Shown: positions 938 to 13,233 of the stretch, in pieces | Position numbering within the stretch: position 1 is the first letter of the stretch | Layout of the letters: each line of letters opens with the position of its first letter | DNA from: Elusimicrobiota bacterium | Lineage (GTDB): Bacteria; CG03; SLGR01; JAGXOG01 | DNA: 17,194 nucleotides | Assembly: GCA_051745145.1 (NCBI GenBank) | Contig: JBNJDT010000033.1 | Location: 1 to 17,194, forward strand | Direction: 5' to 3' | The notes under the pieces: generated by a model | What the model saw: the letters and a program-made list of their open reading frames with translations, nothing else | Database searches by the model: none | Told to the model about the DNA's origin: nothing | Program-made: the position numbers and the translations under genes

Positions 938-1840
938 GTGAAAATATTAAGAAATGAAGACATTTTGGCCTCAAAGAAAAGAGGTAAGAGAAGGATAAGA
1001 GTACCTGAAAGTACAATGGTAACCCCCCTGGCAAAAGAGACCGCCGGGCGGTTTGGAATAGAGATAATTACGGAGGATATTATGAGAAAACCCTATATTG
1101 CCGGCAACTGGAAAATGAATAAGACAAATAAGGAAGCGGTGCAGATGGTTCAGGAATTTAAAAATTTGGTTAGTGATGTTGAAGAAGTGGATATGATGAT
1201 TGCTCCCCCCTATACGGCATTACCCGTACTTAATGAAGTGTTAAAAGATTCTAATATTATGCTGGGGGCCCAGAATATGCACCAGGAGACCAGCGGGGCG
1301 TATACCGGAGAAATATCCCCGGATATGTTAAAAGATACCGGCTGCGGATGGGTCATACTCGGACATTCCGAAAGAAGAGAATATTTCGGGTGTACCGACG
1401 AGCTGGTAAATAAAAAGTTAAAAGTAGCTATGGATAAAGATTTAAAACCGATAATTTGTCTTGGCGAAAAGCTTGAACAAAGAGAAGCAGGGAAGGCTTT
1501 TGATGTAATAAAAGGCCAGCTGGATATTGCTCTGAAAGATATTACTGCCGAGCACGCATCTAGTTTAACTATCGCCTATGAACCGGTGTGGGCAATAGGG
1601 ACCGGTAAAACTGCTACTCCCGAGCAGGCCAACGAAGTTCATGAATTTATAAGGGAAAATTTGAGCGAAAAATTTGGTCCCGAAATAGGTAGCGGGATAA
1701 GAATTCTTTACGGGGGCAGCGTAAAACCTTATAATGTAAAAGAGTTGATGCAGGAAGAAAATATCGACGGTGGACTGATAGGTGGAGCCAGTCTGGAAGC
1801 GGAATCGTTTTCAAAGATAGTAAAATTTAAAAATCAATGA
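938..1840 (+). CDS. tpiA: Triosephosphate isomerase with a 48-aa N-terminal extension; alternative internal start at 1082
   Basis: TPI motifs AGNWKMN, GAYTGEIS, ILGHSERR, AYEPVWAIGTG, LYGGSVK and GGLIGGASL. The long form starts at GTG 938. The TPI core starts at in-frame ATG 1082, preceded by GGAGG at 1072-1076. Confidence 0.95.
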   Translation: MKILRNEDILASKKRGKRRIRVPESTMVTPLAKETAGRFGIEIITEDIMRKPYIAGNWKMNKTNKEAVQMVQEFKNLVSDVEEVDMMIAPPYTALPVLNEVLKDSNIMLGAQNMHQETSGAYTGEISPDMLKDTGCGWVILGHSERREYFGCTDELVNKKLKVAMDKDLKPIICLGEKLEQREAGKAFDVIKGQLDIALKDITAEHASSLTIAYEPVWAIGTGKTATPEQANEVHEFIRENLSEKFGPEIGSGIRILYGGSVKPYNVKELMQEENIDGGLIGGASLEAESFSKIVKFKNQ

Positions 1841-2457
1841 TAGATGAGAGTAAATTAGAAGGGGAAATTTTACTGAGATTGGAAAGATCTCAAAAGCCGA
1901 TAATATGTAATGTCTCCAACAGGCATATACATATGACCCAGAAGCACGTGGAAAAACTTTTTGGTCACGGTTATAAGCTTACAAAATTAAGAGATCTTAT
2001 GCAGCCGGGAGAATTTGCGGCCAAGGAAACGGTAACTCTTGCCGGACCAAAAGGAAAGTTAGAAAGGATAAGAGTACTGGGTCCGGTTCGCGATTCCACC
2101 CAGATAGAGGTATCCCGGACGGATTGTTACACGTTGGGTATAGATGCTCCGGTTAGAAATTCGGGTAATGTAGCCGGAACTCCCGGAGGACGTTTGATCG
2201 GTACTAAGGGGTCAGTTCGTTTATCTAAGGGCATAATTGTGGCCCAGCGTCACATTCATATGACTCCGGCAGATGCCGGCGTATTTAAAGTAAAAGACGG
2301 TCAAAAAGTTCGTGTCCGTACCCGTCCGCCAAGATCAATTGTCTTAGAGGATATGCTGGTGAGAGTGAGTGAAAATTATTGTCTGGAATGCCACATAGAT
2401 ACCGATGAAGCAAACGCTTGCGATTTGAAAAGCGGAGATGAAGTTTTTTTAAGTTAA
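1837..2457 (+). CDS. pduL: PduL-type phosphotransacylase (BMC-associated)
   Basis: VSNRHIHM, L.QPGEFAA.E.V, VRVLGP-like IRVLGPVR..TQIEVS.TD, AQRHIHM and HIDTDEANA motifs. ATGA overlap with the tpi stop. The short amphipathic N-terminus resembles an encapsulation peptide. Confidence 0.93.
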   Translation: MIDESKLEGEILLRLERSQKPIICNVSNRHIHMTQKHVEKLFGHGYKLTKLRDLMQPGEFAAKETVTLAGPKGKLERIRVLGPVRDSTQIEVSRTDCYTLGIDAPVRNSGNVAGTPGGRLIGTKGSVRLSKGIIVAQRHIHMTPADAGVFKVKDGQKVRVRTRPPRSIVLEDMLVRVSENYCLECHIDTDEANACDLKSGDEVFLS

Positions 2458-2485
2458 ATTTTAAGTTATAAACAGGAGTTAAAAT

Positions 2486-2779
2486 ATGGATAAAGCTTTA
2501 GGAATGATAGAGACCAAAGGATTAGTGGGTATGATAGAAGCCGGCGATGCTATGGTCAAAGCCGCTGATGTTCGCCTGGTAGGGTATGAAAAGATAGGAT
2601 ATGGTTATGTCACGGTATTAGTCAGAGGGGAAGTGGCAGCCTGCCGGGCCGCCTGCGAGGCAGGGAGTATGGCCGCTCAGAAAGTCGGGGAGCTGGTTTC
2701 TGTCCATGTAATACCGCGGCCCCATGAAGATTTAGAGGGTAAATTGCCTATTACCCGCGAATTTTTTAATAATGAATAA
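2486..2779 (+). CDS. BMC-H hexameric shell protein (EutM/PduA-like)
   Basis: ALGMIETKG...[12 protein letters not shown]...[16 protein letters not shown]...[14 protein letters not shown] ribosome-binding site upstream. Confidence 0.95.
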
Positions 2780-3080
2780 AATGGAAAGAGAAGCACTGGG
2801 TATGGTGGAGACCCGGGGGCTTGTAGGCAGTATAGAAGCCGGTGATGTTATGGTAAAGACCGCTAGAGTGGAGCTGGTTAAATATGAAAAAACGGGAAAC
2901 GGGATTGTGACTGTATTGATACGGGGGCCGGTGGCAGATTGCCGGGCTGCAGTGGATGCGGCTTCAGCGGCAGTTGAAAAAATAGGAGAATTATTAAGTG
3001 CCCATGTAATACCATTTCCCTATGAAGATCTTGAAGACAGTTTACCGATAAATATAGAAAATATAAAAAAAAGAGGATAA
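2772..3080 (+). CDS. BMC-H hexameric shell protein, divergent paralog
   Basis: ALGMVETRG...[11 protein letters not shown]...[11 protein letters not shown]...HVIPFP. The start could be ATG 2772 or ATG 2781; both abut the upstream stop codon. Confidence 0.93.
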
Positions 3081-3083
3081 AAA

Positions 3084-3380
3084 ATGCAGTTTGGAAAAAT
3101 TACAGGTAATGTAGTTTGCACTACAAAAGACAGTAAAATAAAAGGCAGAAAATTAATGCTGGTTCAGCCGGTTGACGATAATCTTGACCCGGCCGGTACT
3201 CCCCTGGTGGGTCTGGATTCGGTGGGAGCAGGAGAAGGTGAGCTGGTGCTGTATGTAACGGGCTCATCATCCAGAATGACCGATATCACCGAAGACCGTC
3301 CGGTGGACTGTACTATAATGGCTATTGTAGATTATGTGGAAAAAGAGGGCCAGCTTATATTTGAAAAGCACAAGGAATAG
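3084..3380 (+). CDS. BMC-P pentameric vertex protein (EutN/CcmL family) no. 1
   Basis: G.ITGNVVCTTK...G.KLMLVQP...DSVGAGEGELVL.VTGSSSR...PVDCTIMAIVD. Confidence 0.94.
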   Translation: MQFGKITGNVVCTTKDSKIKGRKLMLVQPVDDNLDPAGTPLVGLDSVGAGEGELVLYVTGSSSRMTDITEDRPVDCTIMAIVDYVEKEGQLIFEKHKE

Positions 3381-3427
3381 AATCTAACCAAAATATCAAA
3401 CAAATTTAAGATATCGGAGGATATAAA

Positions 3428-4855
3428 ATGGATATTGATAAGCAACAAGTATCAAAAATTGTAAGAGAAGTGGTCAGTAAAATTGAGCAGGGTGACAGCC
3501 CGGCAGTATCTTCAATTTCCAGCGCCGGCTCTTCATATCTTTTTGATACTATGGAAAGGGCCATAAGTAAGGCAAAAGAAGCCCAGGCCCGGTTTGCGGA
3601 TATGGGACTGAAACTCAGAAGAAAAGTTATCTCTGAAATGCGCAAAGCTGCAAGAGAAAATGCCGAGTCCCTGGCCCGGTCCGCCCGTGATGAAACGGGA
3701 ATGGGACGGTATCCGGATAAGATAAAGAAAAATATGCTGGGTGCGGATAAAACTCCGGGGGTGGAAGACCTAAGCCCGGTTACCTATACCGGCGATGACG
3801 GAATGACTTTGGTAGAGAAAGCTCCTTTTGGGGTCATAGGGGCGGTAACTCCTTCAACTAATCCCACATCCACGGTAATAAATAATTCTATAAGTATTCT
3901 GGCGGCGGGGAACGCTGTGGTATTTGCCCCCCATCCGGCAGCTAAAAAATGTTCCCAGGAAGCAATTAATATTTTAAACGAAGCGGTTGTAAAAGCCGGT
4001 GGACCCGGGGGACTGATAACAGCTATGTCCGAACCTACCTTGGAAGGGGCCCAGGTACTGTTTTCTCATCCGGATATAAGAGTTTTACTGGTTACCGGAG
4101 GCCCTGCTGTTGTGGCCAAGGCCATGGAAAGTAATAAAAAAGTTATAGCGGCCGGGCCGGGAAATCCCCCGGCGGTTATTGACAGCACTGCGGATATTGA
4201 CCGGGCGGTGGATTCAATTATTAAGGGGGGAAGCTTTGACAACGGGATTCTGTGCACCGCGGAAAAAGAAGTTCTGGCAACCGACCGGGCGGCGGGGGCG
4301 GTTATTGACAGATTCAGGAGTGATTCCAGAATTTACGAATTAGATTCTCAGCAGATGGACCGCCTGGCGGATATTGTTATAGAAGAATCCGGCAAAGGAG
4401 GTTGCGAGGGGGCCATGAACCGGGAGTATGTGGGAAAAAATGCTTCCTATATAGCCCAGGCTATAGGACTTGATATCCCCCGGGATACAAGGTTTTTGTG
4501 GGGAGAAGTGGATAAAAACCATGATTTAATGTGGACCGAACAGCTTATGCCCGTTATGCCGGTGGCCAGAACGGGCAATATCCAGCAGACTATAGATCTG
4601 GCCGTAGAAATGGAGGGGGGAAACGGACATACGGCTATAATGCATTCTCTTAACGTGGAAAATCTGACTAAAATGGCCCGCAAAGCGGCCTGTTCCATAT
4701 TTGTTAAAAACGGACCTTCTTATATGGGGCTGGGCATGGGCCAGGGATATGCAACTATGTCCATTGCCACTCCCACAGGAGACGGTCTGGTCAAGGCCTC
4801 TCACTTTACCCGGCCGTTAAGATGTGTGTTAGTGGATAATTTCAGGATAGCATAA
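3428..4855 (+). CDS. CoA-acylating aldehyde dehydrogenase (EutE/PduP family) with N-terminal encapsulation peptide
   Basis: PFGVIGAVTPSTNP, PHP.A, VTGGP.VV, AGPGNPP, catalytic Cys in FDNGILCTAEK, EQLMP, HTAIMHS, IFVKNGPS and IATPTGDG. The N-terminal helix DKQQVSKIVREVVSKIE is followed by a Ser-rich linker. GGAGG ribosome-binding site upstream. Confidence 0.95.
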   Translation: MDIDKQQVSKIVREVVSKIEQGDSPAVSSISSAGSSYLFDTMERAISKAKEAQARFADMGLKLRRKVISEMRKAARENAESLARSARDETGMGRYPDKIKKNMLGADKTPGVEDLSPVTYTGDDGMTLVEKAPFGVIGAVTPSTNPTSTVINNSISILAAGNAVVFAPHPAAKKCSQEAINILNEAVVKAGGPGGLITAMSEPTLEGAQVLFSHPDIRVLLVTGGPAVVAKAMESNKKVIAAGPGNPPAVIDSTADIDRAVDSIIKGGSFDNGILCTAEKEVLATDRAAGAVIDRFRSDSRIYELDSQQMDRLADIVIEESGKGGCEGAMNREYVGKNASYIAQAIGLDIPRDTRFLWGEVDKNHDLMWTEQLMPVMPVARTGNIQQTIDLAVEMEGGNGHTAIMHSLNVENLTKMARKAACSIFVKNGPSYMGLGMGQGYATMSIATPTGDGLVKASHFTRPLRCVLVDNFRIA

Positions 4856-6181
4856 ATGAAAAAAGAAGAAATTTTACGAAAAGTTAAATCGGCCGGGGTA
4901 GTTGGCGCCGGAGGAGCGGGTTTCCCGTCTTATGCTAAAATTTCGGCAGATGCCGATGTTGTAATAGCTAACGGTGCGGAATGCGAACCGCTTCTGGCTA
5001 CGGATAAATTTTTAATGGAAAAGCACGCCCGGGAAATTGTGGAGGGACTAAGGTTAATAAAGCAGACCACCGGAGCTAATGAGCTGTATATAGCATTAAA
5101 AGCAAAGTATAAAAAAGCGGTTGCCAGTTTTAATAAAATACTGGGAACCAGTTCGGATATAGAGTTGTATAAACTTGATAATTACTATCCGGCCGGAGAT
5201 GAATTTGAACTGGTATACGATATAACCGGTAAATCAATTCCCGAAAGCGGACTGCCCCTGGATGTGGGGGCGGTAGTTACTAATGTAAATACCATTTTAA
5301 ACGTAAAAAGAGCGTTTACCGATGATAAACCGGTGACCACCAGGTGGGTAACGGTAGCCGGCGCCCTGGAAACTCCATATATGGCTGAAGTTCCGGTGGG
5401 GATAACTGCCGGGGAACTGATCCGGGCCGGAAAGCCAAAGGTCGAGGATTATGTTATAGTAGGCGGCGGTCCGATGACCGGGAGCATAGTTGACGAAGAC
5501 TATCTTATAGATAAAAGAGACGGGGGAATACTGGTATTACCCGAAGATAATCCGGCAGCTGTTAAGAAGAGCCGTACTATCCAATCTAATGAAAAGAGGG
5601 GCAAGTCCATGTGCGATCAGTGCTTTGACTGCTCTATTGTCTGTCCTAGAAACTTACTGGGGCACGATCTTTCCCCTCATAAAATGATGAGAAATTTATT
5701 TATAGCTCCGGAAAATTCTTCCGTGCATCTTACTAATGCATATCTATGCTGTGAATGCGGGTTATGTGATATGTTTGCCTGTCCTCTGGATCTTTCCCCC
5801 CGGGAAATGTTAGTGCAGGCCCGGGATACACTTCAAAAAGAAGGGGTGGAAAACCCCCATAACAACAAAAACCTTGAAGTACATCCGGAGAGAGATTTTA
5901 GAAGGGTAAATACCGATCGTTTAGTTAAAAGAATAGGATTGGATAAGTATGAAGGGCAGAAACTGGCAGTAAAAACTGTAAAAACAGATAAGGTTAAAAT
6001 ATCTCTTGCCCAGCATATAGGTGCTCCATCTGAGCCGGTCATCAGCAAGGGAGATAAAGTAAGCAGCGGGGATATAATAGCCAAAATACCGGAAGATACT
6101 CTGGGAGCTACGGTTCATGCCAGTATAGACGGAAAGATAACTAATATTACCGATAACAGTATTAATATAGCGGGAGGATGA
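4856..6181 (+). CDS. pduS: PduS-like (RnfC-related) NADH/FMN Fe-S oxidoreductase
   Basis: AGVVGAGGAGFP, NGAECEPLL..D, YPAGDE and GGPMTG motifs; two ferredoxin motifs (CDQCFDCSIVCP, CCECGLCDMFACP); C-terminal QHIGAP...VHASIDG. It starts immediately after the aldehyde dehydrogenase stop and is followed by a PduT-like gene. Confidence 0.92.
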   Translation: MKKEEILRKVKSAGVVGAGGAGFPSYAKISADADVVIANGAECEPLLATDKFLMEKHAREIVEGLRLIKQTTGANELYIALKAKYKKAVASFNKILGTSSDIELYKLDNYYPAGDEFELVYDITGKSIPESGLPLDVGAVVTNVNTILNVKRAFTDDKPVTTRWVTVAGALETPYMAEVPVGITAGELIRAGKPKVEDYVIVGGGPMTGSIVDEDYLIDKRDGGILVLPEDNPAAVKKSRTIQSNEKRGKSMCDQCFDCSIVCPRNLLGHDLSPHKMMRNLFIAPENSSVHLTNAYLCCECGLCDMFACPLDLSPREMLVQARDTLQKEGVENPHNNKNLEVHPERDFRRVNTDRLVKRIGLDKYEGQKLAVKTVKTDKVKISLAQHIGAPSEPVISKGDKVSSGDIIAKIPEDTLGATVHASIDGKITNITDNSINIAGG

Positions 6182-6191
6182 GAGAAAAAAT

Positions 6192-6740
6192 ATGAAAAAT
6201 GCCATAGGTTTAATTGAACTTTGCAGTATAGCAAAAGGATTTGAGGTAACAGACAGTTTATTAAAGACGGCGGGCAGCGAACTGGTCGAATCTCATTCGG
6301 TCTGTCCGGGAAAATTCATTGTTCTTATAACCGGCCGGACAGCGGATGTGGAAAGCTCACTGGATGCCGGGCTGGAGCTGGCCGAAGATGCTTTTGTGGA
6401 TAAACTTATGATTCCCAATATACACAGCCAGCTTGTTCCCGCTATACGGGGGATGAGTGATGTAACCGAGCTGGAATCCCTGGGAATAATAGAGACCTTT
6501 TCGGCGGCCTCCTCTATAATAGCGGCCGATGCCGCTGCCAAAAAGGCCAACATAGATTTAATAGATGTCCGTCTGGCCAATGCCCTGGGGGGAAAGGCTT
6601 ATGTTACACTAACCGGGGAAGTGGGAGCGGTCCGCTCCTCTGTAAATGCGGGTTGTATGTCTATTAAAGAGGAAGGAATTTTAGTCCGGCGGGTAGTAAT
6701 TCCAAGACCCCACAAAGATATGGCCCGGAGCGTTTTATAA
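6192..6740 (+). CDS. pduT: BMC-T tandem-domain shell protein, PduT-like
   Basis: Two BMC domains (AIGLIEL.SIAKG...D..LK; SLGIIETFS...AADAAAK...GGKAY...GEVGAV...VIPRPH). The pore Cys motif VCPGK, which ligates the 4Fe-4S cluster in PduT, is present. Confidence 0.92.
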   Translation: MKNAIGLIELCSIAKGFEVTDSLLKTAGSELVESHSVCPGKFIVLITGRTADVESSLDAGLELAEDAFVDKLMIPNIHSQLVPAIRGMSDVTELESLGIIETFSAASSIIAADAAAKKANIDLIDVRLANALGGKAYVTLTGEVGAVRSSVNAGCMSIKEEGILVRRVVIPRPHKDMARSVL

Positions 6741-6766
6741 TATGTCTACAAAGGAGATAAATTAGT

Positions 6767-7219
6767 ATGAATGAAATAGTGGTCGGATCGGATCACGGCG
6801 GCTTTGCCCTTAAAGAGGATTTAAAAGATTATCTTCAGGATAACGGGTACAATGTTGTGGATTTTGGCACTTATTCGGAAGAGTCGTGTGACTATCCCGA
6901 TTACGCCCAGCTTGTTGCACAGTCGATATCCAGGGGGGAGTACGAGAGGGGGATTCTGGTTGACGGTACGGGGGGAGGAGTTTGCCTTACGGCCAATAAG
7001 GTCAAAGGAGTGAGGGCGGTAACGGCCTATAACAGGTTGACCGGGGGATATGCCGCAGAGCACGATGACTGTAATGTTTTATGTCTTGGCGGTAAAATGC
7101 TGGGGCCTCTTTTAGCCAGAGATATAGTGGATGAATGGTTAAAAACACCTTTTGGCGGGGGAAGGCACGCCCGGAGGCTGAATAAAATCAAAGATATAGA
7201 GGATAAGTACTACAAATGA
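6767..7219 (+). CDS. RpiB/LacAB-family sugar-phosphate isomerase, Asp-type (no catalytic Cys)
   Basis: GSDHGGF.LK, DYPDYA, ANKVKGVRA and F.GGRH.RR motifs. The active-site loop reads VDGTGGG rather than CGTGIG, and HDD replaces HNN/HND. Confidence 0.9.
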   Translation: MNEIVVGSDHGGFALKEDLKDYLQDNGYNVVDFGTYSEESCDYPDYAQLVAQSISRGEYERGILVDGTGGGVCLTANKVKGVRAVTAYNRLTGGYAAEHDDCNVLCLGGKMLGPLLARDIVDEWLKTPFGGGRHARRLNKIKDIEDKYYK

Positions 7220-7665
7220 GGATAATAATAGGCTCCGATCACCGGGGTTTTAAGTTAAAGAAAGAATTAAGCGAATATCTTTCGGCAAAAGATTATGATA
7301 TCACCGATGTCGGACCACCGGATGAAGAATCGGTGGATTATCCGGAATACGCCCGGGAAGTGGGCCGGAAGGTTACCCGGGGCGCGGGGGATTTTGGTAT
7401 AGCCATATGCGGCAGCGGGGTAGGAATATGTATAGCGGTAAATAAAGTTCGGGGGATCAGGGCGGGTACGGCCAGGGAAGTTAGTGATGCAAAGATGATG
7501 AGAAAGCATAACAATGCCAATGTTCTGTGTATAGGGGCCGATGAAACAGATACCGGAACCGCTAAAGAGATGGTGGATGAATTTTTAACTACGGATTTTG
7601 ACGGGGGAAGACATAAAAGAAGAGTGAATTTAATAAAAAGGATGGAACAGGATGAAAGCCGCTAA
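7216..7665 (+). CDS. rpiB: Ribose-5-phosphate isomerase B-like, canonical Cys-type
   Basis: GSDH.GF.LK, DYPEYA, ICGSGVG, NKVRGIRA, HNNANVLC and FDGGRH.RR motifs. ATGA overlap with the preceding paralog. Confidence 0.9.
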   Translation: MRIIIGSDHRGFKLKKELSEYLSAKDYDITDVGPPDEESVDYPEYAREVGRKVTRGAGDFGIAICGSGVGICIAVNKVRGIRAGTAREVSDAKMMRKHNNANVLCIGADETDTGTAKEMVDEFLTTDFDGGRHKRRVNLIKRMEQDESR

Positions 7666-7957
7666 AGTAATAGGCCGGGTAGTGGCCACCCGAAAATATA
7701 AAACTATGAAAGGTAAAAAAATTCTCATGTTAAAACCCATGAGCTGGGAGGAAGTTGAGGAAGCTTACAAAAACAACCGGGAAGACGAAGTTAAAGATAA
7801 AGGGAAATCCATCCTGGCTCTTGATGCCGTGGGGGCGGGGGCTTCTGAGTATGTATTTTACGTTTCCTCCAGAGAAGCCTGCCACGCATTTGATGATTAT
7901 GCCATATGTAACCATGCGGTAGTGGGTATAATTGACGGGCTAGATATAAACCAATGA
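7652..7957 (+). CDS. BMC-P pentameric vertex protein no. 2, with a charged insertion
   Basis: AKVIGRVVATRK...GKKIL...ALDAVGAG..E.VFYVSSREA...AVVGIID. Overlaps both neighbouring genes. Confidence 0.9.
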   Translation: MKAAKVIGRVVATRKYKTMKGKKILMLKPMSWEEVEEAYKNNREDEVKDKGKSILALDAVGAGASEYVFYVSSREACHAFDDYAICNHAVVGIIDGLDINQ

Positions 7958-8250
7958 TTATCGGAAAAGTAATCGGTAATGTCTGGGCCACCCGTAAGCA
8001 TTCCGCTCTTACCGGAAAAAAATTATTACTGGTAAAACCGGTGGATGAGATATCCGGCGAACCAAACGGGGAAACTCAAATGGCAGTTGACCAGAGTATT
8101 GACGCCGGGCCCGGTGATACGGTCCTGGTTCTGGACGAGGGTTCTTCCTGCCGGCAGATTTTAGGTTATGAACAGGCCCCAACCCGGACAATAGTTGTGG
8201 GGGTTGTGGATAATGTTTACAGAGAAGGTAAATTTAAAAAATATCATTAA
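7954..8250 (+). CDS. BMC-P pentameric vertex protein no. 3
   Basis: GKVIGNVWATRKH..L.GKKLLLVKP...AVD..IDAGPGDTVLV..EGSS.R...IVVGVVD. ATGA overlap with the previous gene. Confidence 0.92.
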   Translation: MIIGKVIGNVWATRKHSALTGKKLLLVKPVDEISGEPNGETQMAVDQSIDAGPGDTVLVLDEGSSCRQILGYEQAPTRTIVVGVVDNVYREGKFKKYH

Positions 8251-8307
8251 AGAATAAGTTTTTAATATTATTATAAAAGTTAGACTGACAGAATAAGGAG
8301 GAAAAAA

Positions 8308-9732
8308 GTGGAAGAAAGTTTAATTCAGAAAATAACAAATGAGACAATGAACAGGATAAAAAGTGACAAAGGCGGTAAACGGGAGATACTGCTGATTTTT
8401 ATGGGGGGAGATCGGGAAGTGGATACTGCCCTAAACCAGATTAAGTGTTTAAAGGAGCTGGGGGCCCGCATGTCTGCTTATCTTACCGGGGCAGCCCATA
8501 AAATTATAGGCAGACAGAAAGTACTCCAGAGCGGCGTGGATAGAATTATAGAGGATAAGGATATATGGGACCGGTCACTTTTAGACCGTATAGACGGAAT
8601 AATAGTCCCCGTACTTACAATGAACGGAGCGTCGAAAATATCCAATATGGTAGCGGATAATCCCGCGTCCAATATAATATTGCTGGCCCTGCGGCATGAG
8701 AAGAAAATCTTAATGGCCAGGGATTCAATTATCTGCTGCGGCGGTCCCGAGCCCAAGGCCACGTCATTTTTTATGAGGCAGGTTAACCAGATGGTAAATA
8801 CCATTAAAAATCTGGGGGCAACTGTAACGGTGGCCAAAAATCTGGCCCAGCGAGCTACCGAGCTTTTTAATATGGACAGTAAAGTTAGAACAGTCTCAAA
8901 TTCTTCAACCTCATCATCGGGATTAAATAATAATTTACCCTGCGGGGGAGATGTGGAGGCCTGCGCAGAATGCGGACTGTGTGTAGTTAACAGGGAAGAT
9001 GAAGTAAGAGATATTGTAAATGCCGGAGCTTCAAGAATTTCCGCCAAACAGTTGGGAAATAATGTGGCTCAGGATATAGCCGGGCTGATAGACCACACCG
9101 ACCTCAATGCTGATTCTACCGATAAAGAGATAGGAGAGTTATGCGAGGAGGCGAAAAAATATAATTTTGCTACGGTATGTGTCAATCCCACAAACGTTAA
9201 ATTAGCCAGCCAGCTTTTAAAAGGAACCGATGTAGGGGTGACTACGGTAATAGGTTTCCCCTTGGGGGCTACGACACCTACGGTAAAAGCTATTGAAGCC
9301 AGGGATGCTATTGCTAACGGGGCAGATGAGATCGATATGGTTATGAACGTCGGAGCCCTAAAGAGCGGTAATTACCAGCTGGTAGAAGATGATATTAAAG
9401 CAGTCCGGGAGGCGACCCAGGGAAAAATTCTGAAAGTTATACTGGAAACTGCATTACTGGATGAAGATCAGATAAGAAAGGCCAGTCAGCTGGCCAAATC
9501 CGCGGGAGCGGATTTTGTAAAGACTTCTACCGGGTTTGGTCCGGGAGGAGCAAAAGAAGAAGATATAAGTGTTATGCGCGAAACCGTCGGAGAATCCATG
9601 GGAGTTAAAGCTTCCGGGGGAATTCATTCCAAGGAAGAAGCTCAGGGAATGGTGGACGCCGGCGCATCCCGGATAGGGGCATCGGCTTCGGTGGCCATAG
9701 TTACCGGCGGTGAGTCGGACAGCGCATATTAA
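8308..9732 (+). CDS. deoC: Deoxyribose-phosphate aldolase with N-terminal encapsulation peptide, flavoprotein-like domain and Cys-rich linker
   Basis: The C-terminal ~220 aa are Deo[35 protein letters not shown], Schiff-base Lys in [15 protein letters not shown] and GASRIGAS. The N-terminal ~250 aa are extra. GTG start with AAGGAGG at 8295-8301. Confidence 0.93.
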
Positions 9733-9766: not shown

Positions 9767-10063
9767 ATGGCAGAATCAAAACTTGCCTTAGGTATGATTG
9801 AGACGATAGGTTTAGTAGGTATGATAGAGGCATCAGATGCCATGGTAAAAGCGGCAAAAGTAGAACTGGCCGGATACGAAAAGATAGGACAAGGCTATGT
9901 TACAACCATGGTAAGAGGTGAAGTCGGCGCTGTAAGGGCTGCCGTAGAATCCGGTTCTCAAGCTGCTCAAAAAGTTGGGGAATTAGTCAGTGTTCACGTT
10001 ATACCTAGACCGCATGGCGATCTGGAGAGAATTATACCTCAAGATAATAACGAAAAAAAATAA
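9767..10063 (+). CDS. BMC-H hexameric shell protein (EutM/PduA-like), possibly the major shell protein
   Basis: ALGMIET.G...[11 protein letters not shown]...[20 protein letters not shown]...SVHVIPRPH. Strong TAAGGAGG ribosome-binding site. Confidence 0.95.
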
Positions 10064-10150: not shown

Positions 10151-10435
10151 ATGAGAAAGATTATTGCCGATACAGTAGTGGATATAATAACAGAGAGTCA
10201 AATTTCTTCCCGATCCGAAGAAGAAGATGATTTTAAGAGAGGACCTCTGTTAGAAAAAGAGTATATAAAAAGCCGGACAACTTTTAAAAATAAGAAACCG
10301 TTAATTACTAAGGATGTTATAGAAAATAAGATTAACGAAGGGATAAAAAATTTAAAAGTTCCATCCAATGCTGTAGTTACTCCGTTAGCCCGCATGCTTA
10401 TAGAAGAGGGCAGGATAAATATTATTGAAGAATAA
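10151..10435 (+). CDS. Small BMC-associated hypothetical protein with a C-terminal 'IT..D...VTPLAR' module
   Basis: The C-terminal half (PLITKDVI...LKVPSNAVVTPLARMLIEEGRINII) resembles the TPI N-terminal extension and the EutQ N-terminal domain. The N-terminus is an amphipathic helix. No clear Shine-Dalgarno, so the start is uncertain. Confidence 0.7.
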   Translation: MRKIIADTVVDIITESQISSRSEEEDDFKRGPLLEKEYIKSRTTFKNKKPLITKDVIENKINEGIKNLKVPSNAVVTPLARMLIEEGRINIIEE

Positions 10436-11100: not shown

Positions 11101-13233
11101 ATGAAGCTAGATAACTATAAATTAAAACATACGCCCAGTCCTAAAGACAAAAACAGGTATAAATTAAGCCTGGGGGGAACTGAAAAAGAGGTAAAAAAAT
11201 TAGTAAATAAACTGGGCAATGTAAGCAGCCGTCCTTTTCCCGCCTCTGAAGAAAAATTTGAGTGGTCGCTATTTTTATATGATACTGATAAAAAATTCAG
11301 AAAAAAACTCAAAAAAAAATTAGATAAAATTGTAAAGTCCAAAAAAACAAAAGAGAAGTCCCGGCAAAAAAAAGATAAAAAGGAAGAACAAAATAAAAAA
11401 GAGGATACCTCTAATATTAAGCCGGCTGAAAAGAAAAGTAAAGAAAAAGAACCTGTAAGTAATCTTTCCTCCCATACCACATTAAAGGAAAACTATGTTT
11501 TTGATAATTTTATAGTGGGGACGAATACCCGGTTTACTTATGCGGCCTGTAAAGCTGTAGCAGAAAATCCGGGGGAAAATTATAATCCCCTGTTTATCTA
11601 CGGGGGTGTGGGGCTTGGAAAAACTCATCTAATGCAATCAATCGGTAATTATGTAAAACAAAATTTCCCGGATTACATGATAGTATATATTTCAACGGGG
11701 AAATTTATAGAGGAAGTAATAAATGCTATTGAAAAAGGGACTATAAACGAGTTGCGCAATCGATACAAGGATGTAGATCTTCTTTTAATTGACGACATAC
11801 AGTTTTTAGAAAAGTCGGAATCAACCCAGGAGGAATTTTTTCATATTTTTAATGATATGCATGATGTTAAAAAGCAGATTGTTATTACTTCCGATAAACC
11901 TCCAAAAAAGTTAACAACTCTGGAAGAACGTTTGAAATCCCGCTTTGAATGGGGTTTAACGACAGATGTAAAGTCCCCGAATTTCGAGACCCGGAAAGCA
12001 ATATTAAAGAGAAAGGCTACTAAGGCAGGTTTGGAATTGACGGAAGATATAAGTAATTATATTGCTGAAAGATTAACTTCCAACATAAGGGAACTGGAGG
12101 GAATTATTAATAGAATTGTGGCCTATAAAAATATTTCGGATGAGAATATGAATCTTGATTTAGTTAAAGATATAATAAGCAATATTTTACCCGGCGAACC
12201 TGAAGAGGAAGAAAAATCTGATACCCAGCAGACGCCGGCCGACGATACGCCCCCGCCGCCGGGAGGTGAGGGTTCGTATTCGCAGCAGACCCCTTCTTCG
12301 GTTCAGCAGCCCCAGCCCCAGCCTCAAGCTCAACCTCAATATTCCGCGCCCCAGCCATCGCCCCAGCAATCAGGTAAAATTTGTTCCAGATGTGGAAGTC
12401 CCCAAATAAGTTTTGTCCCTCAATATCAAAGATGGTATTGTGGAAGTTGTGGAATGTATGTCGAACCAAGTGTGCCAAACTGGCAATCATCCGGTCAGCC
12501 GGGTACCGGTAATTTTCCGCCCCCTCCCCCCCAGCATCAGCACCAGCCCCAGCCCCAGCAGCAACAGCCTCCACCACCTAATCAACAGGGTGGGGAAAAG
12601 AAATGTCCCACGTGCAGTAGTAATTTAGAATATATTTCTAAGTATGACAGGTATTATTGTAGAAATTGCGGCAAATATACCCAGCCGCAATCAGCTCAAT
12701 CCAGTCAAAACGTACCCCCGCCGCCTCAGTCGGAAGATAAGGCTCAGATTAAAACTCAGCAGGATGATACTGCGTCTGAGGATACAGAAAGCGGGGAGGA
12801 GCAAGAAGAAGCGTTTCGCCAGAAAATAATAGGCACAAAGAAATCTGATGTGAGGGAAATAAAAGCAGGTTACATATTGCCGGAAGGATCGCAACAGCTT
12901 TTTTCAGAAATTGTGGACAAATTGCATAAGCTGGCCCGCCAGAAAAAGATAAATTTTTATATACAGCCTGTATTTACCCATTTTTATTCTCCGGAGGTAA
13001 ATATAAATTACGATAAATTGGTTCATCTGGCAATTAACAATAAAGTCGATATTGCACTTTCCATGGAGCCGGGGGGGAATTTTGCAGTTGCCGATAATTT
13101 TAAAAGTGAAATTACTGCTAAAATGGAAGAAAAAGATATGCCCCTGGAAGTTTTGCCCCGTGAACCGATAAAAGACAGTTTTGCTTTAAATATAATGCTG
13201 GATATAGCAATTTGCGCTAAGAAAAATAAATAA
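11101..13233 (+). CDS. DnaA-like AAA+ ATPase lacking domain IV, with Pro/Gln linkers, two Zn-ribbons and novel N- and C-terminal domains
   Basis: Residues ~128-362 match DnaA domain III: Y.FDNFIVG..N, YNPLFIYGGVGLGKTHL (Walker A), LLLIDDIQF (Walker B), QEEFFH.FN, ITSD.PP, RLKSRFEWGL and NIRELEG. No RDHTTV-type helix-turn-helix follows. Confidence 0.88.
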   Translation: MKLDNYKLKHTPSPKDKNRYKLSLGGTEKEVKKLVNKLGNVSSRPFPASEEKFEWSLFLYDTDKKFRKKLKKKLDKIVKSKKTKEKSRQKKDKKEEQNKKEDTSNIKPAEKKSKEKEPVSNLSSHTTLKENYVFDNFIVGTNTRFTYAACKAVAENPGENYNPLFIYGGVGLGKTHLMQSIGNYVKQNFPDYMIVYISTGKFIEEVINAIEKGTINELRNRYKDVDLLLIDDIQFLEKSESTQEEFFHIFNDMHDVKKQIVITSDKPPKKLTTLEERLKSRFEWGLTTDVKSPNFETRKAILKRKATKAGLELTEDISNYIAERLTSNIRELEGIINRIVAYKNISDENMNLDLVKDIISNILPGEPEEEEKSDTQQTPADDTPPPPGGEGSYSQQTPSSVQQPQPQPQAQPQYSAPQPSPQQSGKICSRCGSPQISFVPQYQRWYCGSCGMYVEPSVPNWQSSGQPGTGNFPPPPPQHQHQPQPQQQQPPPPNQQGGEKKCPTCSSNLEYISKYDRYYCRNCGKYTQPQSAQSSQNVPPPPQSEDKAQIKTQQDDTASEDTESGEEQEEAFRQKIIGTKKSDVREIKAGYILPEGSQQLFSEIVDKLHKLARQKKINFYIQPVFTHFYSPEVNINYDKLVHLAINNKVDIALSMEPGGNFAVADNFKSEITAKMEEKDMPLEVLPREPIKDSFALNIMLDIAICAKKNK
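12226..12726 (+). repeat. Coding low-complexity Pro/Gln tracts alternating with a duplicated Zn-ribbon unit
   Basis: CAGCCC-type hexamer iterations near 12304-12336 and 12532-12570 encode (QP)n. The two units are CSRCGSPQISFVPQYQRWYCGSCGMY (12382-12459) and CPTCSSNLEYISKYDRYYCRNCGKY (12604-12678). Confidence 0.85.

What the first reader, a model, noticed from the sequence alone, without database searches (positions are those of the whole stretch)
8308..9732. DeoC fused to an encapsulation peptide, a flavoprotein-like domain and a Cys4 linker
Seen: 474 aa, about twice a normal DeoC. The order is an amphipathic helix ([17 protein letters not shown]); a Rossmann-like domain (ILLIFMGG...YLTGAA..IIG...[30 protein letters not shown]...KKILMARDS); a Ser/Asn linker; C-x6-C-x2-C-x2-C at 8941-8982; then a complete aldolase with its catalytic lysines. 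A further CC pair lies in the Rossmann-like domain. Established: the middle domain pattern fits the HFCD/Flavoprotein-type proteins found as stand-alone genes of unknown role in several BMC loci, and aldol cleavage needs no redox cofactor. Inference: the fusion links that flavoprotein family to the signature enzyme, as a scaffold or as a flavin/Fe-S redox sensor or relay to PduS/PduT.
Basis: partly seen in the sequence, partly recalled or inferred. Interest (0 to 1): 0.72.

Follow-up and report, generated by a model that had tools for sequence, protein, structure and literature searches.

The report
Trimer-forming arm on microcompartment aldolase
This gene joins the deoxyribose-phosphate aldolase of a known kind of bacterial protein organelle to a flavoprotein-shaped domain that lacks its family's catalytic motifs and is predicted to form trimers, so it likely cross-links the organelle's enzyme cargo rather than passing electrons; the same fusion was already reported in archaea.

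Summary
8308-9732 is one 474-aa frame: N-terminal helix, HFCD/PF02441-fold domain (over Pfam cut-off; structural Z 18.9), linker, Cys4 motif, intact DeoC/DERA, in a sugar-phosphate (SPU1-like) microcompartment locus. It is conserved in 9 of 26 genomes of its phylum and in other lineages. It is not new: a 2025 preprint (PMC12747264) reports Flav+DERA in Hodarchaeales, and this scan noted it before on other DNA. The redox reading is weakened: the Cys4 module belongs to targeted DERAs generally (5 of 76 carry the flavoprotein domain); the CC pair is not universal; the catalytic His and PxMNxxMW motifs are absent; likely flavin-contact positions are altered; 11 related genomes keep PduS without this domain. 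The domain is predicted to form the family's homotrimer (score 0.94, controls 0.00), and its stand-alone relatives sit in the pduM gene slot and share PduM's tail. Best reading (0.55): trimer domain plus dimeric aldolase cross-link the enzyme core. Flavin or Fe-S relay: 0.2. Cofactor binding could not be tested.

The parts
8296..8301 (+). Shine-Dalgarno-like AGGAGG, 6 nt before the GTG start
   Evidence: sequence
8308..9732 (+). Fusion gene, 474 aa: targeting helix - HFCD-fold domain - linker - Cys4 module - DERA
8314..8367 (+). N-terminal helix (residues 3-20), putative encapsulation peptide
   Evidence: model helix 3-20; aligns to N-termini of stand-alone relatives; hydrophobic-moment test uninformative; absent from three Elusimicrobiota fusions L056-L058
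8371..8877 (+). HFCD/PF02441-fold domain (residues 22-190), no catalytic His or PxMNxxMW, predicted homotrimer
8878..8940 (+). Ser/Asn-rich linker (191-211), variable in length and sequence
   Evidence: alignment; pLDDT under 50
8941..9048 (+). Cys4 module (C212, C219, C222, C225) followed by a helix-strand ending AGASRI that repeats the last helix-strand of the aldolase barrel; general to targeted DERAs
9070..9732 (+). DeoC/DERA TIM barrel with D343, K405, K434
10151..10435 (+). 94-aa gene carrying the C-terminal TPLA tail domain that stand-alone flavoprotein relatives and PduM carry; the missing end of the ancestral protein, as a separate gene
   Evidence: TIGR02536 positions 149-206; profile match to stand-alone family 95%; syntenic in relatives, absent where shell genes are lost
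938..8250 (+). Upstream SPU microcompartment genes: TPI with TPLA-type extension, PduL, 2 BMC-H, BMC-P, AldDH, PduS/MNdh, PduT-type BMC-T with CPGK, 2 RpiB, 2 BMC-P
9767..10063 (+). BMC-H shell gene directly downstream

Best explanation
This is the deoxyribose-5-phosphate aldolase of a sugar-phosphate microcompartment, and its flavoprotein-fold arm likely works as a packing scaffold: the arm is predicted to form trimers, the aldolase is expected to form dimers, and the two together would cross-link the enzyme into a network that the N-terminal helices likely tie to the rest of the core and the shell. Shown: one frame, fold, loss of the HFCD catalytic motifs, gene context, phyletic pattern. Predicted: the trimer. 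From a paper on a relative: the DERA dimer and helix-dependent recruitment. Inferred: the network, and that any bound flavin is structural or absent. The Cys4 module is a separate, older part of targeted DERAs, most likely a one-metal (Zn or Fe) knuckle that orders the N-terminal extension.
For: Fold: model pLDDT 94; the top 11 structural matches are all HFCD-family proteins, Z 14.7-18.9, rmsd 2.4-3.0, next row 10.6. Trimer: score 0.94, best of 3 controls 0.00, runs agree in at least 95% of contacts, partner pLDDT at least 91; the mark was reached by 20 of 30 solved homo-pairs and 1 of 23 single chains; the interface holds conserved T104, N106, K110, M114, D117, L125, G170. No catalysis of the known kind: PxMxxxM in 0 of 33 fused and 0 of 146 stand-alone domains, no conserved His, while the genome's own CoaC keeps both. 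Likely flavin-contact positions (which ones contact flavin is recalled, not from a call) differ in the fusion: G107 in 24 of 33 fused against T/S in 137 of 146 stand-alone; D35 in 31 of 33 against 15 of 146. Decoupled from PduS: 10 of 10 genomes of family f9 plus G002 have PduS but no microcompartment-type copy of the domain was found; their DERA carries short T-x-G-T-S-G-K repeats in its place. Tied to the shell: in the window's order the three genomes without a BMC domain have a bare DeoC at the same site and a fourth has a decaying locus with only the last ~45 residues of the domain. Structural kin: stand-alone relatives are helix-domain-TPLA tail proteins (124 of 150 hits by a tail motif); in Ilyobacter one lies in the order pduL-X-pduN-pduO-pduP where E. 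coli has pduM, and in 9 of the 12 stand-alone loci PduL lies directly or nearly upstream with a BMC-P gene downstream in 11; the tail matches PduM at 98% probability. PduM links core and shell (PMC9132943, PMC11463388, passages). DERA dimer: PMC11585597. Trimer-plus-dimer precedent: CoaBC (PMC7794376, passages).
Against: The trimer resembles solved HFCD complexes, so the pass may be from memory; in HFCDs the same interface forms the flavin site (PMC7794376), so its conservation does not separate scaffold from flavin binding. T60, T104, N106, K110, D117 are kept, and 8 of 33 fused domains keep T107. The best structural match, DmrB, is a redox cage protein. Homology of the PduM body to this domain was weak (2% probability; 0.2% directly), so the PduM link rests on tail, helix and gene slot. 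The domain is dispensable in most SPU DERAs, so it is not an essential scaffold. Only 2 of the 4 losses are clearly from the fused lineage: G020 and G024 DERAs fall outside on long branches. The full-length model gave no domain arrangement (pTM 0.48).
Confidence: 0.55

Rival explanations
1. The domain binds FMN and, perhaps with an Fe-S or Fe centre in the Cys4 module, acts as a redox buffer, sensor or relay for PduS/PduT.
For: HFCD fold with the T-x-N...K...D motif kept; top match DmrB is a redox-transfer flavoprotein; every locus with the fusion that I could read in full has PduS and PduT; PF02441 proteins were raised as possible acceptors in PMC11626177 (passage); CxxCxxC spacing is ferredoxin-like (recalled); C143 is kept in 17 of 19 fusions.
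Against: 11 phylum genomes have PduS without the domain; the same paper places the acceptor outside the shell and notes no specific co-occurring acceptor, whereas this protein is expected inside; Cys4 occurs without the domain in 71 of 76 loci (10 of the 76 frames are cut at the 5' end) and the domain without Cys4 in P0019; no Fer4 Pfam match for the module; CC replaced in several orthologues; G107 and D35 substitutions.
Confidence: 0.2
2. The domain is a passenger: a neighbouring accessory gene fused to deoC long ago, is kept mainly because it carries the targeting helix, and is lost whenever a short linker can replace it.
For: Fused and unfused DERAs are interleaved on the tree (8 changes, at least 4 forced); complete SPU loci lack it; one origin of the fused domains is not rejected (p-AU 0.64).
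Against: 55-73% identity across an order with invariant interface residues; retained in distant bacteria and archaea; kept in L056-L058, which lack the N-terminal helix.
Confidence: 0.12
3. The domain has a new catalytic or ligand-sensing role in the lumen (for example on a thiol, CoA fragment or sugar phosphate), using the GGD loop and C143.
For: G33-G34-D35 is specific to fused domains (31 of 33) and C143/C144 lie at the subunit interface, where HFCD active sites form (PMC7794376).
Against: No known HFCD catalytic motif; C143 and C144 are not invariant; no missing step in the SPU pathway calls for it (PMC11585597).
Confidence: 0.1

Closest known systems
Flav+DERA of Hodarchaeales and other archaeal microcompartments (bioRxiv preprint PMC12747264)
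   Same: DERA fused behind a flavoprotein domain, mostly 470-497 aa in the supplement rows seen, in an SPU locus with PduS/PduT, PduL, AldDH, RpiB; predicted targeting peptide, reported as needed for recruitment to shells.
   Different: Here bacterial; the preprint calls the fusion uncommon in bacterial loci and gives no function, oligomer, cofactor or Cys-motif analysis in the sections I read.
SPU DERA, SPU1 subtype (PMC11585597; PMC8217296 supplement)
   Same: Same enzyme set and BMC-P triplet; the SPU6 DERA printed in the supplement has the same order helix - Cys-rich stretch - GA-x-R - barrel.
   Different: About 170 extra residues of HFCD fold inserted after the helix; the catalogue says only that SPU1 extensions 'do not resemble EPs'; two separate BMC-H genes stand where relatives have one tandem gene.
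Stand-alone BMC 'flavoprotein' (PF02441) / eut_hyp (TIGR02536) accessory proteins, e.g. in SPU4, GRM3, EUT2 loci
   Same: Homologous helix plus domain (profile match 100%, 163 columns).
   Different: They end in a TPLA tail; here the tail is replaced by Cys4-DERA and sits on a separate 94-aa gene and on TPI.
PduM (TIGR04493, PF15953)
   Same: N-terminal signal helix, TPLA tail and pduL-X-pduN slot shared with the stand-alone relatives; HHpred likeness to flavin-binding Rossmann folds noted in PMC11463388.
   Different: No direct HMM match to the fused domain; body homology weak; the fused protein lacks the tail.
HFCD enzymes (CoaC/HAL3, EpiD, UbiX, DmrB, DpaB); CoaBC as a trimer-plus-dimer fusion
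   Same: Fold and predicted trimer interface.
   Different: No catalytic His, no PxMNxxMW, 13-21% identity in structural alignments.

Membership tests
DeoC/DERA class I aldolase | TIGR00126 over cut-off; catalytic Asp and two Lys | tested here: met
   286 vs 117.3 bits; D343, K405, K434 invariant in 13 of 13
SPU microcompartment | DERA + AldDH + RpiB-type protein + three BMC-P in one locus | tested here: met
SPU1 subtype | PTAC, TPI, PduS with pore-Cys PduT, signature genes next to two BMC-P, Elusimicrobia-labelled hosts | tested here: met
   relatives' record titles mostly read Elusimicrobia; definition read
SPU1 subtype | Second BMC-Ts without pore Cys; KAA(N/D)/PQPH partner BMC-H | tested here: inconclusive
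   Window has two overlapping BMC-H genes (2486-3080) where G002, G012 show one in-frame tandem match; motifs read KAAD/PRPH and KTAR/PFPY. The catalogue's HMMs were not available.
PF02441 Flavoprotein / HFCD fold | Profile score over cut-off and HFCD Rossmann fold | tested here: met
   29.8 vs 22.7 bits; Z 18.9, rmsd 2.6, 158 aligned
HFCD proteins | Homotrimer or dodecamer | tested here: inconclusive
   Prediction supports a trimer (0.94 vs 0.00) but may reflect likeness to solved complexes; no measurement
HFCD Cys decarboxylases (CoaC, EpiD, HAL3) | Active-site His (EpiD H67) and PxMNxxMW motif | tested here: not met
   Both absent in the window's domain, motif in 0 of 33 fused; present in the genome's own CoaC
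HFCD proteins | Bound FMN/FAD | not testable with these tools
   FMN rode along but is not scored; site partly kept, partly altered
PduM (TIGR04493/PF15953) | Family HMM match | tested here: not met
   No match for residues 1-195 at E up to 10
PduM-like accessory proteins | Homologous body between signal helix and tail | tested here: inconclusive
   Whole-length profile match to stand-alone relatives 95.9% is driven by the tail (98%); body alone 2% with a shallow 14-sequence PduM alignment
eut_hyp (TIGR02536) | Whole-protein score over 152.6 bits | tested here: not met
   15.4 bits for the fusion, 29.7 for the 94-aa gene
4Fe-4S ferredoxin-type domain | Fer4 profile match for the Cys4 module | tested here: inconclusive
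   No Fer4 family listed for residues 207-256; module poorly modelled; metal not testable

The most novel reading that the evidence does not exclude
The signature enzyme is its own core organiser: a natural three-fold plus two-fold fusion that self-assembles into a cage or condensate, built from the same accessory family as PduM, so that the unexplained 'flavoprotein' genes of PDU, EUT, GRM and SPU loci are full-length PduM-type core-shell linkers and not electron carriers; the Cys4 knuckle with its duplicated barrel strand would be a metal-dependent latch common to all targeted DERAs.
Probability: 0.3. Interest if true: 0.65.

Novelty: new member of a known kind. Interest (0 to 1): 0.36.

Why it matters
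The role of PF02441 proteins in microcompartment loci has been flagged as open since 2014 (PMC4207490) and again in 2024 (PMC11626177), and PduM's mechanism is unknown. This fusion puts the domain on an enzyme with a simple assay, and relatives supply natural variants (with and without domain, Cys4, targeting helix, shell), so scaffold against redox can be tested on one protein. If it is a trimer-dimer cross-linker it offers a portable way to load cargo into engineered shells. The architecture itself is already reported, which caps the surprise.

Tried and rejected
Read-through or mis-assembly: rejected. Cys4 as part of the flavoprotein fusion: rejected. CC as an invariant redox pair: rejected. 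Cys decarboxylase activity: rejected on motifs. Word-index search for close stand-alone copies of the domain: 0 of 33 candidates; a profile search found them. Foldseek with the full-length model returned only DERAs in the rows shown. Designed TIM-barrel and KRas rows are repeat or DeoC-column noise and were ignored. Hydrophobic moment was uninformative. PduM HMM over three genomes holding stand-alone relatives: 0 of 3. Direct PduM-versus-fused-domain profile comparison: no support. The protein atlas gave no result for the module. The EpiD structure paper was not held, so which residues contact FMN is recalled. Contigs from RNA libraries cover the gene, but they cover the whole window and do not show transcription or level. 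Literature: no paper with PduM+flavoprotein+microcompartment; no description of a DERA Cys motif surfaced; subscription papers, figures and one scanned supplement were not visible and may bear on this. Dropped rows: 4 of 80 loci gave no parsable frame; 2 of 182 sequences too short; trees used a subset of the stand-alone proteins (44 of 146; 41 after leaving out 3 fragments and CoaC).

Full report
Observation. The window's + strand holds one 474-codon frame at 8308-9732. Pfam gives Flavoprotein PF02441 at residues 40-137 (29.8 bits, cut-off 22.7) and DeoC at 260-458; NCBIfam gives deoC at 286 bits against 117.3. The four cysteines lie exactly at 8941-8982 and the aldolase residues D343, K405 and K434 are present (the match to E. 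coli D102, K167, K201 is by motif, numbering from PMC11585597). The fusion is not an assembly slip: a search with residues 20-200 found 12 proteins of 467-476 aa among 728 candidates, all with DeoC; 9 of 26 genomes of the phylum have the whole domain in one frame with DeoC; an independent contig spans 8329-10253 without gaps. It is the only deoC match in this genome.

Context. The gene lies among TPI, PduL, three BMC-H, three BMC-P, AldDH, PduS, a CPGK-type PduT and two RpiB-type genes. This is a sugar-phosphate-utilising (SPU) microcompartment, closest to SPU1 (PMC8217296 supplement); close relatives are mostly titled Elusimicrobia. DERA is the SPU signature enzyme, shown active and dimeric after removal of its extension for an SPU6 homologue (PMC11585597).

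The middle domain. With a 150-sequence alignment the model of residues 1-191 has mean pLDDT 94. The top 11 structural matches are HFCD-family proteins (DmrB Z 18.9, rmsd 2.6, 158 aligned; UbiX, CoaBC, TvaF, MrsD, PPCDC, EpiD, HAL3, DpaB, CypD), then a drop to 10.6 (Foldseek agrees; sequence profiles agree). It is not an HFCD enzyme of the known kind: the genome's own CoaC keeps the active-site His and PAMxxxMW, the fused domain has neither, and the motif is absent from 33 of 33 fused and 146 of 146 stand-alone domains. The T-x-N-(T)-x-x-K...D motif is kept, but the Thr is Gly in 24 of 33 fused domains against T/S in 137 of 146 stand-alone ones, and the first loop has Asp35 in 31 of 33. That these positions contact flavin is my recall; these counts are over related sequences and are not independent. 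Three copies of residues 22-190 were predicted to bind (score 0.94, best control 0.00; runs agree in at least 95% of contacts; pLDDT at least 91; the mark was reached by 20 of 30 solved homo-pairs and 1 of 23 single chains). The interface holds the conserved residues 104-118, 125, 142-144 and 170. The pass may come from likeness to solved HFCD trimers, and FMN was not scored.

Where the domain comes from. A profile search of 1.84 billion representatives gave 495 hits; of the best 150, 124 end in a TPLA-type tail by motif and 8 are DERA fusions (7 by motif plus P0016). Stand-alone forms (helix-domain-tail, about 250-280 aa) lay in microcompartment loci in 12 of 12 loci read. In Ilyobacter the order is pduL-flavoprotein-pduN-pduO-pduP; in E. 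coli it is pduL-pduM-pduN-pduO-pduP. PduM matches the stand-alone family at 95.9%, but this rests on the tail (98%); the body alone gives 2%, and PduM against the fused domain 0.2%. [quoted passage not shown] In the window the tail is not lost: it is on the 94-aa gene at 10151-10435 and on the TPI N-terminus. One origin for the fused domains is not rejected (p-AU 0.64; the free tree needed 5 changes), while fused and unfused DERAs interleave (8 changes, at least 4 forced): an old fusion with repeated loss fits, repeated gain is not excluded.

The Cys4 module is separate. All readable extended DERAs of the phylum have it, including family f9 and G002, which lack the flavoprotein domain. A DNA pattern for the module alone returned 120 or more metagenome stretches; of 80 fetched, 76 gave a frame, 76 of 76 continue into DERA, 5 carry the flavoprotein domain, 1 an RpiB (10 are cut at the 5' end). 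The pattern demanded three Cys, so it shows linkage, not conservation. The SPU6 DERA in PMC11585597's supplement has a like Cys-rich stretch. One fusion, P0019, has no Cys there (1 of 9 checked). The module ends in AGASRI, an exact repeat of the barrel's last strand (a repeated 6-mer in 32 of 3000 shuffles), which suggests an internal duplication. No Fer4 family matched and the model is unreliable there. A single-metal knuckle is my inference.

Phyletic tests. Within the order, 11 of 14 genomes have a BMC domain match. G013, G020 and G024 (80, 85, 97% complete) have none and carry a bare DeoC at the same TPI-RpiB-DeoC-cyclodeaminase site; G018 (97%) has shell-gene stubs and a DeoC with only the end of the domain. 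G013 and G018 nest among fused DERAs; G020 and G024 do not, so two losses are clear. The whole extension therefore serves the organelle. Against a PduS relay: 21 of 26 genomes have PduS, and in 11 of them (10 of 10 f9, G002) the only profile matches to the domain body are single weak hits in 181-201-aa frames (409 in G002) that also occur in genomes without shells; I identified this as CoaC in G000 only and infer it for the rest; G011's DERA start is cut by a contig end. PMC11626177 places the electron acceptor outside the shell and finds no dedicated partner.

Mechanism. A three-fold domain on a flexible linker to a two-fold enzyme would cross-link into cages or a network, as CoaC trimers and CoaB dimers do in CoaBC (PMC7794376), and would display many targeting helices. 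I put this at 0.55, a flavin/Fe-S relay at 0.2, a passenger at 0.12, a new ligand role at 0.1. Nothing here measures cofactor or assembly.

Novelty. [quoted passage not shown] I found that paper before consulting the scan's notes, which list the same architecture on other DNA several times. What I did not find in print are the trimer-dimer reading, the PduM slot and split tail, and the Cys4 module.

What I saw of each paper: PMC11585597 parts 1-4 of 10, supplement 2 part 1, supplement search; PMC12747264 passages, sections 6-8, supplementary table rows; PMC8217296 passages, supplement 4 part 3 and searches; PMC4207490, PMC11626177, PMC11463388, PMC9132943, PMC7794376, PMC8549060 passages; PMC9303578 and PMC9324843 passages, not used; PMC305864 not held.

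Noticed in passing
L082:2814-3743 (G000:C4:25813-26742): Satellite shell gene with three PF00936 domains in one 309-aa protein, found as three matches in one 300-324-aa frame in 9 of the 14 genomes of the order. The catalogue pages I read mention double and quadruple BMC-H fusions; I did not see a triple.
   Followed up: partly
window 6767-7665: Two tandem RpiB paralogues: the first has Asp at the catalytic-Cys position (SPU type), the second keeps Cys, like a LacA/LacB pair. Genomes that lost the shell keep the one closer to the second. PMC11585597 says all SPU RPIs have Asp.
   Followed up: partly
window 938-1090: TPI carries an N-terminal TPLA-type domain shared with PduM, EutQ and eut_hyp tails; no match to it in shell-less G013, G020, G024, so it may be a second microcompartment-targeting module.
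   Followed up: partly
window 10151-10435: 94-aa gene with a TPLA tail and a conserved N-terminal D-x-x-V-D motif, syntenic across the phylum and missing where the shell is lost.
   Followed up: partly
window 11101-13233: 710-aa DnaA-like ATPase with a Pro/Gln-rich linker, two CxxC..CxxC zinc ribbons and no match to the DnaA DNA-binding domain; conserved beside the locus in the order and in some Elusimicrobiota, also where the shell is lost.
   Followed up: no
window 2486-3080: Two overlapping BMC-H genes where G002 and family f9 show one in-frame tandem BMC-T match: a natural BMC-T fission or fusion.
   Followed up: partly
L019:4780-6520 (G018): Microcompartment locus caught in decay: stubs of BMC-P and BMC-H, AldDH/PduS/PduT not found, DERA keeps Cys4 and a domain remnant.
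   Followed up: yes
L022, L029, L056-L058 (DERA N-termini): Two to three short T-x-(G/S)-(T/S)-(S/A)-G-K repeats between the helix or flavoprotein domain and Cys4 in f9, G002 and Elusimicrobiota DERAs; role unknown.
   Followed up: no
P0060: A different fusion of the same family: PduL-like domain in front of flavoprotein domain and TPLA tail, 477 aa.
   Followed up: no
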